In this document: one piece after another, positions 1 to 40,442 of the stretch
How the letters are laid out: each line of letters starts with the position of its first letter
Position numbering within the stretch: position 1 is the stretch's first letter
Source of the DNA: a virus
Taxonomy: Duplodnaviria > Caudoviricetes
Direction: 5' to 3' (one strand)
Length of the DNA: 40,442 nt
IMG/VR virus record: IMGVR_UViG_3300020045_012400
Coordinates: 1-40,442 of that record
Program-made: the position numbers and the translations under genes
The notes under the pieces: model-generated
What the model was told of the DNA's origin: nothing
Database searches by the model: none
What the model saw: the letters and a program-made list of their open reading frames with translations, nothing else

Positions 1-121
1 GGATGACGACCTAAGCGATGAAGCTATAAATGCGATTTACAGAGAAATTTCAATGACAGCAAATAAAAAATAGGATTTACAAATGGCCGTCGAAATAACC
101 ACCAAATTCATTATTAAAACA
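1..121. repeat. Terminal direct repeat, identical to 40322-40442 (circular assembly overlap)
   Basis: Exact 121-bp identity between the window ends; ORF 39939..40394 runs through it. Confidence 0.95.
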
Positions 122-22683: not shown

Positions 22684-22750
22684 CCTGTTTGTTTAACCAA
22701 CTCCCTAAGAATGGCAGGGGCGACAAATTATGTCACCCCTTTTTCAAGAT

Positions 22751-25159
22751 TTAAGTTTGACGGAAGATGATGTACGCAAAGCTAGAAACGTCTGCTGTCT
22801 GGGTCGAGGCGGGAGTTCCGAGGATCAAACTAGTTACAGTAAAGCTCGCGGCTGCGCTTATTGTATAGCTAAGCTCGCCCATTGTTACAGATCCGTTTGC
22901 CGCTGTACGGCTCAGGAATATCCTGTCGTTTGCCGCTATATTTGTATTGGCGATAGTTACTGTTCCCAGAACCAGAGTGCTAGTTCCAATAAAGTCGGTT
23001 ACCGCACCGCCATTCATGGAGATCTTAGTCGCTACAGATGTCAATGCAAAGTCTGTAGAGACGTTTACCCCACCCGACCCTGAGTTGATATTGACAGCAG
23101 TTGCACCAGTCGTGTTACCTATAGTGATGGTCTTAGCCGCCGCGTCCGCGCCGATATTAATTGCACCCGTTCCTGTAACGAGACCAAAACTTCCATTGGT
23201 TGTTGTCCAAGCACACGCACCTGAGCCGGAATTCACGTTTACCGCAGTTGCACCAGTAATATTACCGATGGTAATAGTTTTGGCCGCAGCATCTGCCCCG
23301 AGGTTAATCGCCCCGGTTCCCGTTACTAGTCCAAATGTGCCGTTTGTGGTCGTCCAAGCACAAGCACCTGAGCCGGAGTTGACGTTGACTGCCGTAGCTC
23401 CAGTGATATTTCCGATGGTGATTGTTTTTGCGGCTGCATCTGCCCCGACATTGATAGCCCCTGTCCCAGTTACAACCCCGAAAGAACCGTTCGTTGTTGT
23501 CCACGCGCAAGCGCCACTTCCAGAGTTTACGTTGACGGCTGTAGCTCCAGTGATGTTACCGATTGTGACCGTATGTGCAACGGCATTAGTGCCGATGTTT
23601 AGGGCACCAGTTCCACAGTCAACAACCACAGACGTTGCGCCCGTGCCATTGCCGATAGTGATGGTTTTTGCTGCCGCGTCCGCACCAATATTGATAGCGC
23701 CCGTTCCCGTTACGACACCAAAGCTTCCATTGGTTGTTGTCCAAGCGCATGCGCCAGAACCAGAGTTTACGTTGACGGCCGTAGCTCCTGTGATGTTACC
23801 GATTGTAATTGTCTTAGCTGCTGCATCCGTGCCGACGTTAATCGCTCCTGTGCCCGTGACGAATGCCAGCGTAGCGTTCGTGGTGGTGTAGGTACTGCCT
23901 CCACTTCCGGTATTAATGTTGACCGCCGTAGCCCCGGTGATGTTACCGATGGTAATGGTTTTCGCTGCCGCATCCACACCTACTTGGAGAGCTCCAGTAC
24001 CAGACCTCAGCGCGAGGGTAGAGTTAGTGGTGGTCCAGATCGATCCGCCTGTTCCCGCATTTACGTTGACGGCTGTGGCTCCAGTCACATTACCGATAGT
24101 GATAGTTTTTGCAACGGCTACGCCCAAATCAATAGCGCCAGTTCCAGAATCAATTACGACGGATGTCGCTCCCGTTTGGTTACCGATTACGATCGGCTGT
24201 GCAATGGCGTTAGCGCCGACTGAGCATCCAGCTGTACCACCATTCAGCACAACTTGTGTTGCGCCTGTCGAGTTACCGATGGTGATTACACGCGCTGCTG
24301 CGCCTGTTCCGATGTTCATATTCTGCGCAACTGCATCATTACCGATTCCGATAACCCCTGCGGATGAGTTCAACTCCAGAACGCCAGCTGAGTCTATTAA
24401 TACGGTGTCAGCAGAGTTAAGGATGATGTCGCCGGTGGTAGTTGTCGTGACGGTAAAGTGGCCAGTGCCAGTATTTACCGCTACAGCAGTGGCGCCCGTT
24501 ACGTTACCAATTGTAATGACCCGCGCGCCAGCTCCTGTGCCGATGTTTACAGCACCAGTAGACGCATCGGATGCAAGGTTAAGCGCTGTTGCACCTGTGG
24601 TGATAGTAGCACTAGCACTACCAGAGATTAGTCCAGAAAACGTGCCTGTAGTCCCCGCAACGGCAGCAAAAGTTCCGTTTGCAGCTAGCGTGCCCCCGAT
24701 AGCAGGAGGGGAAGCAAAAACGGCTGCCAGGTTAGAAGGTTGCACACAGAAGGCTGTGACGCCTGGAGTTGTTGCGGTTCCGGCAACAGCCTCTGCATCG
24801 GTGGCCAGCTGAGTGATCCCCGTAACTGCTGTTTGAGCAATCGGCGCCCCGGCAATAGCGGTAGCGTCCACATAAGTTTTTACAGTGAGGGATGTGGGCA
24901 CAGTAGTGTCATCAGCGCCAGCAAAGGTGTCCGTCTCAAAAGTTTTTACAATCCCAGCGGTCGTTGTAGTAGCAAGGGCGTTCCCCCCCGATACCCACGT
25001 TGATCCGTTGTAGACGTACTCAGCAGCTGGAGTTACGCTTTTATCAAAATATTGTTGACCCAGTTGCCCTCGGAAGCTTGCCGGTGGCGCTCCGTTTCCA
25101 CTTAACGCTGGAGGTGGCACGCTAACCAAACCACCAACGCCATATACTTGACTAGACAT
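22751..25159 (-). CDS. Long repetitive fibre protein (about 802 aa)
   Basis: GGAGG RBS at the 25159 start; tandem TITIGNxTGAT repeats; G/A/T-rich. Confidence 0.8.
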   Translation of the reverse strand: MSSQVYGVGGLVSVPPPALSGNGAPPASFRGQLGQQYFDKSVTPAAEYVYNGSTWVSGGNALATTTTAGIVKTFETDTFAGADDTTVPTSLTVKTYVDATAIAGAPIAQTAVTGITQLATDAEAVAGTATTPGVTAFCVQPSNLAAVFASPPAIGGTLAANGTFAAVAGTTGTFSGLISGSASATITTGATALNLASDASTGAVNIGTGAGARVITIGNVTGATAVAVNTGTGHFTVTTTTTGDIILNSADTVLIDSAGVLELNSSAGVIGIGNDAVAQNMNIGTGAAARVITIGNSTGATQVVLNGGTAGCSVGANAIAQPIVIGNQTGATSVVIDSGTGAIDLGVAVAKTITIGNVTGATAVNVNAGTGGSIWTTTNSTLALRSGTGALQVGVDAAAKTITIGNITGATAVNINTGSGGSTYTTTNATLAFVTGTGAINVGTDAAAKTITIGNITGATAVNVNSGSGACAWTTTNGSFGVVTGTGAINIGADAAAKTITIGNGTGATSVVVDCGTGALNIGTNAVAHTVTIGNITGATAVNVNSGSGACAWTTTNGSFGVVTGTGAINVGADAAAKTITIGNITGATAVNVNSGSGACAWTTTNGTFGLVTGTGAINLGADAAAKTITIGNITGATAVNVNSGSGACAWTTTNGSFGLVTGTGAINIGADAAAKTITIGNTTGATAVNINSGSGGVNVSTDFALTSVATKISMNGGAVTDFIGTSTLVLGTVTIANTNIAANDRIFLSRTAANGSVTMGELSYTISAAASFTVTSLILGTPASTQTADVSSFAYIIFRQT
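23085..24560 (-). repeat. Intragenic tandem repeats (about 49-aa and 31-aa units); boundaries approximate
   Basis: Recurrent KTITIGNITGATAVNVNSGSGACAWTTTNGSFGxVTGTGAINxGADAAA. Confidence 0.85.
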
Positions 25160-25242
25160 GTTTCCCTCCAAGGAAATTGTTTAATTTACACTCAGTGTGG
25201 AGTATCATCATCATTTGTTCAACTACCTATGAATAACCATTT

Positions 25243-36626: not shown

Positions 36627-38984
36627 TTATGGGCCAGCAGCAGAATTTAATCTGGTGCAAAGCAGGTTTCTAATGGCTGTGTCTTGTGTGATGGCTTGCG
36701 CTTGCGCAAACTTCACGGCTAAAGTGGCGTTCTGTGCGAGCATTCCAGAATAGTATGGATCACGATAAATCAGGTTCATGGAATATCCATCCTGATTGAT
36801 GTGAGTGACCGCTTGCTTACCCACAACTGTGTTGTAGTAAACATCGGACGTATTCATGGACGCCGCTCTTGCAACAGGCGCTTCTGAGCTAGTCAGAATG
36901 CGAATGTTGTATACAGATCCATACTCCGATGGTAATGCAGATGCATTAGTTGGGTAGTTCCACTGGCTCAAGAAACCGGAACCACTCAATCCATCAAAGT
37001 CGGTCTGTAACTCTGTAGAAGACAGCATGAAGTATGCTGAACGTACAGGGCCTGTACCAAATCTATCCATACCTTCGATACCGCTCATAAATTTATAAGC
37101 GTTATTTGTATCGAGTGTAGACGCTACTAAGCTGAAATCGGTGATTCCAAGGTTAGTTGGGTTGTCACCGTTCGAACCGCCGCCTGCATAGATCTGCGAT
37201 GCTGCAGAAATGATGTAGTCACGGAGGATAAGCATTCTGTTACTTTTGTGACCACTCTCGTGGCGGGGAAACCTCTTCGGATCTCCCTCAGCACATTTAT
37301 TTATTCGTGCTGTTCAGACTATCGCATCCCTTTCGGGCCAACTCACTTAGTCGTTCACGGTCTCTTTCGAGTTCCGCCTTGTGATCCTGTCGGACTTCCA
37401 AGTCAATTAGAGCCGGTTTATCGAGGACATTATCTCTATCCTCGGCTTGGCGCATCGCCACGGCCAGTCTTTCGCTGACCCAAGCTAACACCATTTCACA
37501 CCAAGCTAAGAGGGCGTGTTATGCATTTAATTTTCTCATTTGTTGGTACATTTCCTCACGAAAATCTAAAGTTTCCTTGGGAATTCCCCCACGACAATGT
37601 TTTACTGAACCATAATTTTCACAAAAATTAAGCAAAGTAAAAACCTGTCCTCTTTTAAAGCGTATATAGTCAAGGATTCGGTGCATAAATCTTATGCATT
37701 CATCCTTGCTCGAAATAGACATTTTATAGGCATATCCCTTTTGCGTGCATGTAGCCTTAGGAATGCAAAAACTACCGAGAGACAAGTTCTCCCTTATATA
37801 ATTTAGACAAGCCGCGGGCACCATAGTCAGCTGCACCATTGGATTATATCTCGCATTAATACTCCCGGAATGAGCCTTTTCTTTTTTTACAGAAAACGAT
37901 CCTTCCGTATCCATAATTCCTGCAAAATACGCCCAAAACTTTGGACACATACTAATTGATGTTGACTGCTGAACAAGAGTATCATTGGCCATCAGAATTT
38001 CTCTATTCAAAGATTGCATTCCAAGAGCATATCTTTCACCATCTCTTTGAGTGAAATTTTCTGCCTTGAGTCTATCCTTTATAAAGTTTGTCATTAATTC
38101 CGCTTGTCTCTTTTTCAACACCAAGTATTTACCAAATCTTTCGATCGCTGCCAAGCATCCAGTCAGACCCCTTACAGACCACACATAAAGAACTTTATGA
38201 TGCGTCTTTTGAGCCTTTTTAATTCTCAAAGAGCCGCCAAAATTCTCATGCAGTAATTCAGACATCCCCTTAAATGCATTACTCAGCTGCAAGCATGGAT
38301 AGTATTTGCCATGAGCCTTCATAATTGAAAAACTCCCATCACCATCCAAAATCCCTGCAACATATGCCATGTCTATCCCTTCTTTCATAGTGAACTCCTT
38401 TACAGGAATTCTACCATGGTGTACTATTTACGCACAAATGATATATTTATGCTGCAACTTGCTCTGTACCCTCTTGATCCTGCAGTATGACCTGTTCATT
38501 TATGATACAGCCAGTACCGAAGAATGCCATTTGAGCATCAATTATCTTTCTGTTACTTATATGACCCAGTTGCATGGCGGAACAGGTTCTTCGACCCATT
38601 CTCATGATCTTCTTTCTATTCATCATGTTCAGACTATTGCATCCCTTTCAGGTTTTCTCGCTTAGTCGTTCACGCTGCTTTCGCTTGCGCCTCGTCAGCC
38701 CATCGGCTTTCCGAGTCAATCAGAGAAAATTTACCCGCGACATAACATTTATCGCGCTGTGGCACCTGGGCCGCAGGATCAATCCCTGAATTCCCCAACT
38801 GCACAATTGGTGGCACAAGGGCTCTAGGTCTCATAAAACGGCAAGTAGTACCGCCATTAGGAGGCATAGAAATTTTATCACAGACCAAAATGTAATTCAT
38901 GGTCGGTGTGGGAACATATAACATCGCAGGAGCTAAGCTCTGCAAAATCATCGGTCCCAAATTACCTGTAGTTGTAATTGACAT
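36627..38984 (-). CDS. Major capsid protein (N4-gp56-like), spliced: join(38751-38984, 38468-38545, 37438-37491, 36627-37232), 323 aa
   Basis: Exons join in frame: ...QVPQRD|IIDAQ...QDQEG|VLAWVSERLAVAMRQAED|LILRD... Capsid-like motifs MPPNGGTTCRF and SEYGSVYNIRILTS; lies after the scaffold gene. Confidence 0.88.
37233..37437 (-). ncRNA. Group I intron 3 (205 nt)
   Basis: Upstream exon ends in U; P1 CGAGGAU/GUCCUCG; P7 GACUA/UAGUC; P3 GGCUC/GAGUU; ends in G; removal restores the frame. Confidence 0.92.
37519..38388 (-). CDS. Double-motif LAGLIDADG homing endonuclease
   Basis: AYVAGILDGDGS and AYFAGIMDTEGS motifs; AAGGAG RBS. Confidence 0.93.
   Translation of the reverse strand: MKEGIDMAYVAGILDGDGSFSIMKAHGKYYPCLQLSNAFKGMSELLHENFGGSLRIKKAQKTHHKVLYVWSVRGLTGCLAAIERFGKYLVLKKRQAELMTNFIKDRLKAENFTQRDGERYALGMQSLNREILMANDTLVQQSTSISMCPKFWAYFAGIMDTEGSFSVKKEKAHSGSINARYNPMVQLTMVPAACLNYIRENLSLGSFCIPKATCTQKGYAYKMSISSKDECIRFMHRILDYIRFKRGQVFTLLNFCENYGSVKHCRGGIPKETLDFREEMYQQMRKLNA
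38392..38437 (-). promoter_or_regulatory. Internal promoter and RBS-sequestering hairpin of the endonuclease gene
   Basis: TTGTGC-18-TAGAAT with an extended -10 TG; hairpin GAAUUCCU-GUAA-AGGAGUUC covers the Shine-Dalgarno sequence. Confidence 0.7.
38546..38750 (-). ncRNA. Group I intron 1 (205 nt)
   Basis: P1 CGCGAU/GUCGCG with U-G at the splice site; P10 GUUAU/AUAAU; P7 GACUA/UAGUC; P3 UUUUCUC/GAGAAAA; ends in G. Confidence 0.92.
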
Positions 38985-39194
38985 GATTACCTAAATTGTC
39001 AATTAATATGACATGCAGCTCCGTGGACGAAAGGAACGAATTCCTAAGCGTACTACGTCCGTTTGCTAACACATCTGACGGAAGTTGCGAATCTTCCTTA
39101 CGCGATGCCTATGACGCTAGACGAGCGATTTGAGGGCGCCACTAGCTACATGTGCCCTCGTGAAATTAGTTGTACCAAATAAAAGCTTTAATTG

Positions 39195-39938: not shown

Positions 39939-40394
39939 ATGAAAATAAACAGACTCGACGCCCACGATAGACTCACGCACTTCACCAAACAGGGATTTGA
40001 TATAGGTGAATGCTGCCAGGACCTGATAAATCAGAGACCCTATGGCGAACATCCATTCTACATCTTTGCGCATGCACGAACAGAAGAAGATGGTGCCACG
40101 AAAAGACTGATATGGCAGCCGAGACTTACAAAGCCAAAACCACAAACGAACTCAATGCTTTTCAAAGCTTATCCAGGAACAGATGTCATTAAGGTAATCT
40201 GGATGATTCCTGCAAGAGAATTGTGGGGCCAGTTTGGCAAAGGGCTGCTTACAGAAAATAAGATCGTAGCCGATAGTATCCATGACTTTCAGTTTAATCG
40301 AGAAAAGCTTGAAAAAGCAGAGGATGACGACCTAAGCGATGAAGCTATAAATGCGATTTACAGAGAAATTTCAATGACAGCAAATAAAAAATAG
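39939..40394 (+). CDS. Hypothetical protein (151 aa)
   Basis: Clean ORF divergent from the scaffold gene. Confidence 0.75.
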   Translation: MKINRLDAHDRLTHFTKQGFDIGECCQDLINQRPYGEHPFYIFAHARTEEDGATKRLIWQPRLTKPKPQTNSMLFKAYPGTDVIKVIWMIPARELWGQFGKGLLTENKIVADSIHDFQFNREKLEKAEDDDLSDEAINAIYREISMTANKK

Positions 40395-40442
40395 GATTTA
40401 CAAATGGCCGTCGAAATAACCACCAAATTCATTATTAAAACA
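40322..40442. repeat. Terminal direct repeat copy (circular overlap)
   Basis: Identical to 1-121. Confidence 0.95.

What the first reader, a model, noticed from the sequence alone, without database searches (positions are those of the whole stretch)
36627..38984. Major capsid gene split by three intervening sequences with 78-nt and 54-nt micro-exons, all phase 0
Seen in sequence: four exons give a 323-aa capsid protein that the ORF track shows only as fragments, and exon 2 is missing from the track. All three insertions fall between codons within a 44-codon stretch. Established: phage group I introns are best known from DNA-metabolism genes. Inference: capsid output depends on three splicing events, which could act as a timing gate. 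Because all junctions are phase 0, skipping exon 2 and/or 3 would give in-frame shortened isoforms.
Basis: partly seen in the sequence, partly recalled or inferred. Interest (0 to 1): 0.75.

Follow-up and report, generated by a model that had tools for sequence, protein, structure and literature searches.

The report
Coreless mobile intron borrows neighbour's ribozyme
A phage's capsid gene is split by three inserts: two are complete group I (self-splicing-type) introns, but the middle one has a DNA-cutting gene and splice-site guides with no catalytic RNA core, and it is predicted to base-pair right beside the next intron, whose RNA enzyme likely cuts out both, so one intron likely supplies mobility and the other catalysis.

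Summary
The four exons are real: joined, they give a 323-aa N4-gp56-type capsid protein, 88-90% identical to 21 uninterrupted homologues with no gap across the junctions. Introns 1 and 3 (205 nt each) are ordinary group I introns. Intron 2 (976 nt) is not. It has a LAGLIDADG gene, P1, P10 and a terminal G but no catalytic core. A 10-nt segment after its guide is predicted to pair with exon 3 right next to intron 3's P1.

Relatives hold 98 distinct coreless inserts (30-989 nt) at three sites. None was seen without an intron start downstream, and the tether's target follows that neighbour across eight sites. Read-through of unspliced inserts ends in Ala-Ala-stop (83/98), as in other cored introns (75/82) but not the neighbours (6/89), which fits the coreless intron being spliced first.

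Best model (0.8): intron 3's ribozyme removes both introns, and intron 2's nuclease moves the cassette. Splicing was not observed. Exon-skipped isoforms are unlikely to be functional. This scan reported short coreless mini-introns before on other DNA; its look-ups returned no nuclease-bearing form.

The parts
38751..38984 (-). Capsid exon 1 (codons 1-78)
38546..38750 (-). Intron 1, 205 nt, complete group I core, no ORF; guide at 38746-38736; read-through ends in Ala-Ala-stop at 38670
   Evidence: 165.6 bits
38468..38545 (-). Exon 2, 78 nt (codons 79-104); its last 8 nt are the 5' strand of intron 2's P1
37492..38467 (-). Intron 2, 976 nt, coreless: U at the 5' splice site, terminal G at 37492, guide near its 3' end, nuclease gene in the P1 loop
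   Evidence: no core; anatomy
38447..38467 (-). Six in-frame codons ending Ala-Ala, then stop: predicted ssrA-like degron on the unspliced product
38392..38437 (-). Promoter-like -35/-10 pair (38437-38408) and a hairpin over the ribosome-binding site (38411-38392) ahead of the nuclease gene
   Evidence: loose pattern found in 24 of 25 long (over 300 nt) site-104 inserts; hairpin; the site is not listed by the generic scan
37519..38388 (-). LAGLIDADG homing-endonuclease ORF, 289 aa, two motifs
   Evidence: PF00961 E 7.9e-10; 47% identical to the P1-loop ORF of a cored intron at codon 123 in L033
37508..37521 (-). Intron 2 guide: 37521-37516 pairs with the start of exon 3 (P10, 6 bp); 37515-37508 pairs with the end of exon 2 (P1, 8 bp, U-G at the splice site)
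37497..37506 (-). Tether strand, one base after P1; predicted to pair with exon 3 at 37454-37445
   Evidence: -14.6 kcal/mol, 0 of 200 shuffles as good
37438..37491 (-). Exon 3, 54 nt (codons 105-122): P10 target, internal hairpin (about 37480-37462), tether target (37454-37445), then intron 3's P1 strand (37444-37438)
37233..37437 (-). Intron 3, 205 nt, complete group I core, no ORF, no Ala-Ala-stop: the proposed helper ribozyme
   Evidence: 179.3 bits
36627..37232 (-). Capsid exon 4 (codons 123-323 and stop)

Best explanation
The middle insert is an intron with splice-site guides and a LAGLIDADG nuclease gene but no catalytic core, and it is likely spliced out by the ribozyme of intron 3, to which it is predicted to be tethered by base-pairing with the 54-nt exon between them.

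Shown in sequence: P1 with U-G, P10, terminal G, no core, the tether complementarity, the neighbour, the Ala-Ala-stop.

Inferred steps: (1) The tether sets the base of intron 2's P1 one base from the base of intron 3's P1, so both helices hang from one hinge in front of intron 3's core. (2) The core docks intron 2's P1, cuts with free guanosine, binds intron 2's terminal G and joins exon 2 to exon 3 by P10. (3) Intron 3 then splices itself; intron 1 is independent. (4) Until then ribosomes stop six codons into intron 2 and the fragment carries a ClpXP-type tag. (5) The nuclease cuts intron-free alleles, and repair copies the whole cassette, helper included.
For: No core in I2.

Dependence: in 91 loci fetched by capsid similarity alone, 26 of 26 with a coreless insert have a cored intron at codons 89-145, against 6 of 65 without one (near-duplicates not removed). 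Over all loci the next insert is a complete cored intron in 90 of 98; the other 8 are cut by the edge of the stretch analysed and show the start of one.

Tether: the best tail-exon duplex ends within 2 nt of the neighbour's P1 in 81 of 98. Its target follows the neighbour across eight sites, and the matching site scores best in 10 of 13 groups. Own exon beats same-site exons of other loci in 88 of 92, and 0 of 5000 permutations reach the observed pairing in the 41-row group. P1 and P10 show compensatory pairs at synonymous positions.

Exon 3 folds a hairpin where this intron is present (-7.3 kcal/mol, 30 distinct sequences) but hardly where it is absent (-1.8, 46).

Order: Ala-Ala-stop in 83 of 98 coreless inserts (0 in the other two frames), 75 of 82 other cored introns from codon 60 on, 6 of 89 helpers; at site 144, 8 of 8 non-helpers and 0 of 2 helpers.

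Mobility: helpers of nuclease-bearing coreless introns have a long ORF in 0 of 21, helpers of ORF-less ones in 38 of 66. Exon divergence tracks the cassette in the pairs that differ by it or share it. Coreless inserts are scattered over the capsid tree.

Precedent for the chemistry: engineered group I ribozymes excise non-catalytic segments using P1, P9.0 and P10 (PMC4094466 passages).
Against: No splicing was observed: the only RNA run gave no joint.

No P9.0-like pairing between intron 2's 3' end and the helper was identified. Nothing shown prevents intron 3 from splicing first and orphaning intron 2.

Folded without exon 2, the window's junction prefers another structure in which the tether strand pairs with the guide; the tether forms when P1 is present.

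In 17 of 98 rows the best duplex was not within 2 nt of the neighbour's P1, and in 3 of 13 groups (88->98.2, 88->120, 88->122) another site's window scored better. Six helpers keep Ala-Ala-stop and 7 non-helpers lack it.

Partly by construction: the patterns required a guide near the 3' end or a short insert, the aligner rewarded U and G ends, and the P1 search required U-G. Rows are related, so the counts are not independent events. The long-ORF call for helpers is a crude rule.
Confidence: 0.8

Rival explanations
1. Intron 2 is removed by group I chemistry, but by any core acting in trans (intron 1, or excised introns); the tether only compacts the RNA.
For: P1, P10 and the terminal G are all within intron 2 and its exons; spliceozymes work in trans (PMC4094466 passages).
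Against: The tether targets the bases next to the downstream intron's P1 and moves with it; many loci have no upstream intron; only the downstream neighbours lost Ala-Ala-stop.
Confidence: 0.08
2. Intron 2 is a minimal self-splicing ribozyme like the 63-75-nt fungal PaSSU introns, using exon sequence as scaffold.
For: PaSSU keeps P1, P10 and a middle-to-3'-exon pairing and was reported to splice in vitro (PMC3160393).
Against: PaSSU is drawn with a P7 and ends in U. The shortest inserts here (30 nt) are fully used by guide, tether and a short tail, leaving no room for P7. Self-sufficiency does not predict 26 of 26 co-occurrence.
Confidence: 0.04
3. A host or phage protein nuclease and ligase, or ribosomal hopping, removes or bypasses the insert.
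For: The inserts are non-catalytic, and 30-60 nt is the size of a known translational bypass (T4 gene 60, recalled).
Against: Matching take-off and landing codons in 0 of 84 phase-0 rows; in-frame and stop-free 0 of 98; full bulge-helix-bulge 0 of 98. No RNA ligase or splicing nuclease among the 30 window ORFs scanned.
Confidence: 0.04
4. Introns 2 and 3 leave as one unit (exon 3 skipped), or the gene makes useful shortened isoforms.
For: All skips are in frame; skipping occurs in Twort orf142 and Coxiella 23S rRNA (PMC10136302 passages); intron 2's P1 with intron 3's terminal G would give it.
Against: Exon 3 is gap-free in 68 of 68 homologues and starts the long helix; intron 2's P10 fits exon 3 (6 bp), not exon 4 (1 bp); many relatives have phase-2 neighbours, where skipping shifts the frame.
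Confidence: 0.04

Closest known systems
Phage group I introns in structural genes: LittleE capsid intron (PMC3706429, passages read); Twort orf142, three introns and a skipped 23-nt exon (Landthaler and Shub 1999, seen only as cited in PMC10136302 passages)
   Same: Several U...G introns in a phage gene, micro-exons; introns 1 and 3 here are of this kind
   Different: The Twort introns are described as self-splicing group I introns; here the middle intron has no core and pairs next to its neighbour's P1
Engineered trans-excision-splicing ribozymes and spliceozymes (PMC4094466, passages read)
   Same: A group I core removes a non-catalytic segment and joins its flanks
   Different: Engineered, in trans, with the guide on the ribozyme; here natural, in cis, the guide is on the removed segment and the core then removes itself
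Small degenerate rDNA introns of Phialophora (PaSSU, 63-75 nt; PMC3160393, parts 1-2 of 3 read)
   Same: Tiny; P1, P10 and a middle-to-3'-exon pairing
   Different: Reported as self-splicing with a P7 and a terminal U, no neighbour and no ORF; here a terminal G, no P7 found, a constant cored neighbour and a nuclease-bearing form
[quoted passage not shown]
   Same: One partner gives mobility, the other splicing
   Different: Here the nuclease gene sits inside the coding sequence, in its own coreless intron, and would depend on the partner's ribozyme to be removed
ssrA/tmRNA degradation tag (C-terminal Ala-Ala is the key ClpX signal; PMC11317155, passages read)
   Same: C-terminal Leu/Ile-Ala-Ala on a truncated product
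   Different: Hard-coded in the intron's first codons rather than added by tmRNA; degradation not tested

Membership tests
Group I intron (introns 1 and 3) | Catalytic core P3-P9 with P7 | tested here: met
   165.6 and 179.3 bits on a model from relatives; P7 motifs. Rfam gave no hit
Group I intron (introns 1 and 3) | U-G in P1, P10, terminal G | tested here: met
Group I intron (introns 1 and 3) | Guanosine-dependent self-splicing | not testable with these tools
   no informative RNA
Group I intron (intron 2) | Catalytic core P3-P9 with P7 | tested here: not met
   6.7 bits at best; 0 bits in 60 of 60 distinct site-104 inserts
Group I intron (intron 2) | U-G in P1, P10, terminal G | tested here: met
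   P1 8 bp, P10 6 bp; compensatory pairs in P10 at site 104 and in P1 at sites 88 and 91
PaSSU-type minimal self-splicing intron | Own P7-like G-binding helix | tested here: inconclusive
   no room in 30-nt members; no PaSSU model was searched
PaSSU-type minimal self-splicing intron | Terminal U | tested here: not met
   terminal G in 98 of 98, partly by construction
Bulge-helix-bulge intron | BHB motif at both junctions | tested here: not met
   0 of 98
Translational bypass | Matching take-off and landing codons | tested here: not met
   0 of 84 phase-0 rows
LAGLIDADG homing endonuclease | Two LAGLIDADG motifs in an intact ORF | tested here: met
   PF00961, two stretches, 40 bits over cut-off 23.1; 288-296 aa in 22 site-104 ORFs
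LAGLIDADG homing endonuclease | Cuts the intron-free allele near codon 104 | not testable with these tools
   only an indirect co-conversion pattern
N4-gp56 / HK97-fold major capsid protein | Family profile and fold | tested here: met
   on uninterrupted homologue P0088 (89% identical): TIGR04387 80.7 bits over cut-off 60; model pLDDT 90.7; N4 capsid E 2.5e-20, HK97 E 2e-10
ssrA-like degron | C-terminal Ala-Ala selected at protein level | tested here: met
   83 of 98 in frame, 0 in other frames; mixed Ala codons and all three stops
ssrA-like degron | Degradation by ClpXP | not testable with these tools
   host unknown

The most novel reading that the evidence does not exclude
A natural class of non-autonomous introns exists in which one group I ribozyme splices two introns in a fixed order by swapping two P1 helices on a shared hinge. 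This window shows the mobile form: the coreless intron carries the homing nuclease, the ORF-less neighbour carries the catalyst, and the pair spreads as one cassette, with intron-coded degrons clearing unspliced capsid fragments.
Probability: 0.65. Interest if true: 0.92.

Novelty: categorically new. Interest (0 to 1): 0.85.

Why it matters
If true, it is a natural case of a ribozyme removing an intron other than itself: introns reduced to splice signals with catalysis supplied from outside, the step that separates self-splicing introns from spliceosome-like systems. It is testable with one short transcript. It also shows a new selfish partnership (nuclease in one intron, ribozyme in the next). 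It predicts that 30-nt guide-plus-tether cassettes could direct a group I core to chosen sites. The Ala-Ala-stop pattern suggests how introns are tolerated in a highly expressed, assembly-sensitive gene. Such inserts would be annotated as frameshifts or pseudogenes, and Rfam missed even the two complete introns here.

Tried and rejected
Rfam: 0 hits at gathering score in the window, 2 chance hits at E up to 10 in the region.

First aligner allowed only phase 0 and mis-parsed several loci; replaced. It still splits some introns near codons 69-81 and invents small inserts at contig edges. Six of 104 coreless rows were dropped for lacking the upstream exon.

Three loose pattern scans gave 360 loci, of which 4 encoded the capsid. 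The nuclease scan gave 2 loci.

RNA: one run held 0.06 of the words and gave short pieces and no joint; uninformative.

Single-sequence fold failed (pLDDT 33). phmmer of one sequence on the PDB found nothing; the profile did. No relative among 50,697 GenBank phages.

Two separate nuclease invasions at site 104: two groups about 33% alike, but one clade is not rejected (p-AU 0.41), so not claimed.

The generic promoter scan does not list the nuclease promoter. Host not assigned: the genome hits lie in assembled bins of unrelated phyla. No other intron core in the window.

Literature: ten searches showed no paper, by title or abstract start, on a natural coreless intron spliced by a neighbour or on intron-coded ssrA-like tags. 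The library lacks most subscription papers, and no supplements were read.

Full report
Setting. The window looks like a whole circular phage genome: it has a 121-nt terminal repeat, and portal, terminase and recombination genes among the 30 ORFs scanned. No relative lies among 50,697 GenBank phages; the host is not known.

Observation. The joined 323-aa protein is 88-90% identical to 21 of 21 uninterrupted homologues, with no gap across the junctions. An uninterrupted homologue passes the N4-gp56 capsid profile, folds with pLDDT 90.7 from a 68-row alignment and matches the N4 and HK97 capsids.

Introns 1 and 3 are ordinary. Each is 205 nt with P1, P10, the P7 motifs and a terminal G. Rfam misses them, but a model built from ten introns of relatives scores them at 165.6 and 179.3 bits and finds nothing else in the window above 9.9.

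Intron 2 has no core. It holds 79 nt of leader, a 289-aa LAGLIDADG ORF and 27 nt after the ORF's stop. Its best score is 6.7 bits. Its guide sits at the 3' end: six bases pair with the start of exon 3 and the next eight with the end of exon 2, with U-G at the splice site. One base later, ten bases are complementary to exon 3 positions -17 to -8, which abut intron 3's P1 at -7 to -1. Five bases later comes the terminal G.

It belongs to a family. I mapped inserts in 222 capsid-bearing stretches out of 591 held. At three sites (after codon 88, inside codon 92, after codon 104) every distinct insert lacks a core: 29 of 29, 16 of 16 and 60 of 60. Full-length inserts at the other well-mapped sites have one; fragments from mis-splits and contig edges score low. 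After merging rows with the same 3' end and dropping 6 of 104 that lacked the upstream exon, 98 remain, from 30 to 989 nt. Part of this set came from patterns that favour coreless inserts, so the fair test is the 91 loci fetched by capsid similarity alone. There, 26 of 26 loci with a coreless insert have a cored intron at codons 89-145, against 6 of 65 without (near-duplicates included). Over all 98, the next insert is a complete cored intron in 90, and the other 8 are cut by the edge of the stretch and show an intron start. On a FastTree tree of 130 capsid genes the inserts are scattered; the nuclease-bearing form needs 9 changes for 13 rows (one row, L568, mislabelled).

The tether tracks the neighbour. 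The best duplex between the insert's tail and the whole intervening exon ends within 2 nt of the neighbour's P1 in 81 of 98 rows. The neighbour sits at eight different sites, 21 to 168 nt away, and the tail pairs best with the window beside its own neighbour's site in 10 of 13 groups. Within a site pair, a tail fits its own exon better than other loci's in 88 of 92 rows (mean -12.1 against -8.7 kcal/mol); 0 of 5000 permutations match the 41-row group; in 85 of 98 rows at most 2 of 200 shuffles pair as well. Synonymous codons of exon 3 form a hairpin where the insert is present (-7.3, 30 sequences) but hardly where the region is intron-free (-1.8, 46). Against this: 17 rows have their best duplex elsewhere, rows are related, and without exon 2 the window's junction folds another way.

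A degron marks the order. Read in the capsid frame, unspliced coreless inserts end in Ala-Ala-stop in 83 of 98 rows and in 0 of 98 in each other frame, with mixed Ala codons and all three stops. Of 19 site-88 inserts under 50 nt, 18 have a length of 2 modulo 3, which sends read-through into an exon frame ending in Ala-Ala-stop or Val-Ala-stop. C-terminal Ala-Ala is the key ClpX signal of the ssrA tag (PMC11317155 passages). Cored introns from codon 60 on carry it in 75 of 82 cases, those before codon 60 in 0 of 25, and those directly behind a coreless insert in 6 of 89. At site 144, 8 of 8 non-helpers have it and 0 of 2 helpers. In the window, introns 1 and 2 have it and intron 3 does not. My inference: ribosomes stop at the coreless intron until it is gone, and the helper leaves soon after. 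Most helper sites have few non-helper controls, so site history is not excluded outside site 144.

Division of labour. Helpers of nuclease-bearing coreless introns have a long ORF in 0 of 21 cases, helpers of ORF-less ones in 38 of 66; at site 104 alone it is 0 of 21 against 10 of 25 (crude ORF rule). L031 has the window's three introns and differs from intron-free L037 by 0-2 bases per 60 in 10 of 16 blocks, but by 5, 11, 17 and 5 over codons 61-140 (and 6 and 15 at 161-200). The window differs from L031 and L081 by 4-7 per 60 over codons 81-120 and by 3-25 elsewhere (3 of 11 pairs compared are cited, the rest are mosaic or distant). This fits homing with co-conversion of the whole cassette, but it is indirect.

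Mechanism. Shown: guide, terminal G, missing core, complementarity, co-occurrence, codon pattern. Inferred: the tether places the bases of the two P1 helices at one junction in front of intron 3's core; the core splices intron 2 and then itself. By established group I chemistry (PMC3984707 passages) the core needs a P1 with U-G, a terminal G and P10, all of which intron 2 supplies, and engineered cores do excise foreign segments (PMC4094466 passages). Not shown: any splicing, a P9.0 equivalent, or what stops intron 3 from leaving first. Confidence 0.8. Bypass, in-frame read-through and bulge-helix-bulge splicing fail their tests.

Skips are in frame, but exons 2 and 3 are gap-free in 68 of 68 homologues and encode core strands and the start of the long helix. 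Guides pair poorly with the wrong exon, and phase 0 is the commonest phase. Skipped products may arise as errors, as in Twort orf142 (PMC10136302 passages), but are unlikely to be functional.

Novelty. Capsid introns and three-intron phage genes are known (PMC3706429 passages; PMC11878797 passages, added nothing on coreless introns). Intron 2 fails the defining test of a group I intron, yet appears to work through group I chemistry. Ten searches of an open-licence library showed no natural precedent; subscription papers and supplements were not seen. Earlier AI notes of this scan describe short coreless mini-introns in other genomes, one mentions the destruction tag and three report RNA support. 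I reached the reading before that look-up, could not check their RNA claims, and count them as leads only. Look-ups for a nuclease-bearing coreless intron returned none. Interest 0.85.

Noticed in passing
Capsid introns across loci: Ordinary cored introns from codon 60 onward also encode Ala-Ala-stop in the capsid frame (75 of 82), while those before codon 60 never do (0 of 25): a general degron safeguard with a length threshold.
   Followed up: partly
L466, L557, L584, insert after codon 104 (313-325 nt): Coreless inserts that carry a 74-aa ORF with a hydrophobic N-terminus in place of the nuclease; function unknown.
   Followed up: no
L529, L567, L568, insert after codon 104 (397-419 nt): Remnants of the nuclease gene; many shorter inserts keep its last codons, showing decay towards the 30-nt form.
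   Followed up: partly
L012, L467, L472, L483, L588: Genes with two coreless inserts, each with its own downstream cored intron.
   Followed up: partly
L488, L517: Coreless insert whose next cored intron is 168 nt away; a 5-base stretch of the tail matches the exon beside that intron's P1, with a compensatory change, although the best overall duplex lies elsewhere.
   Followed up: partly
L033, L055 (codon 123), L045 (codon 90): Cored introns with a related LAGLIDADG gene ahead of the core, 34-47% identical to the window's; possible donors or relatives of the nuclease.
   Followed up: partly
Cored introns at codons 92-163 in many loci: LAGLIDADG-like ORFs on the opposite strand, often with a stop-free sense frame; earlier notes of the scan describe this.
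   Followed up: no
All capsid loci: At least 35 cored insertion sites in one 320-codon gene; 28 of 78 full-length loci fetched by similarity alone carry at least one insert.
   Followed up: partly
window 1-121 and 40322-40442: 121-nt terminal repeat: the contig is likely a complete circular genome.
   Followed up: yes
window 39021-39163: Structured-looking stretch between the upstream 39195-ending ORF and the capsid start; no Rfam match.
   Followed up: no
window 22730-25171: The 806-aa minus-strand ORF is overlapped by two long plus-strand open frames (314 and 298 aa).
   Followed up: no
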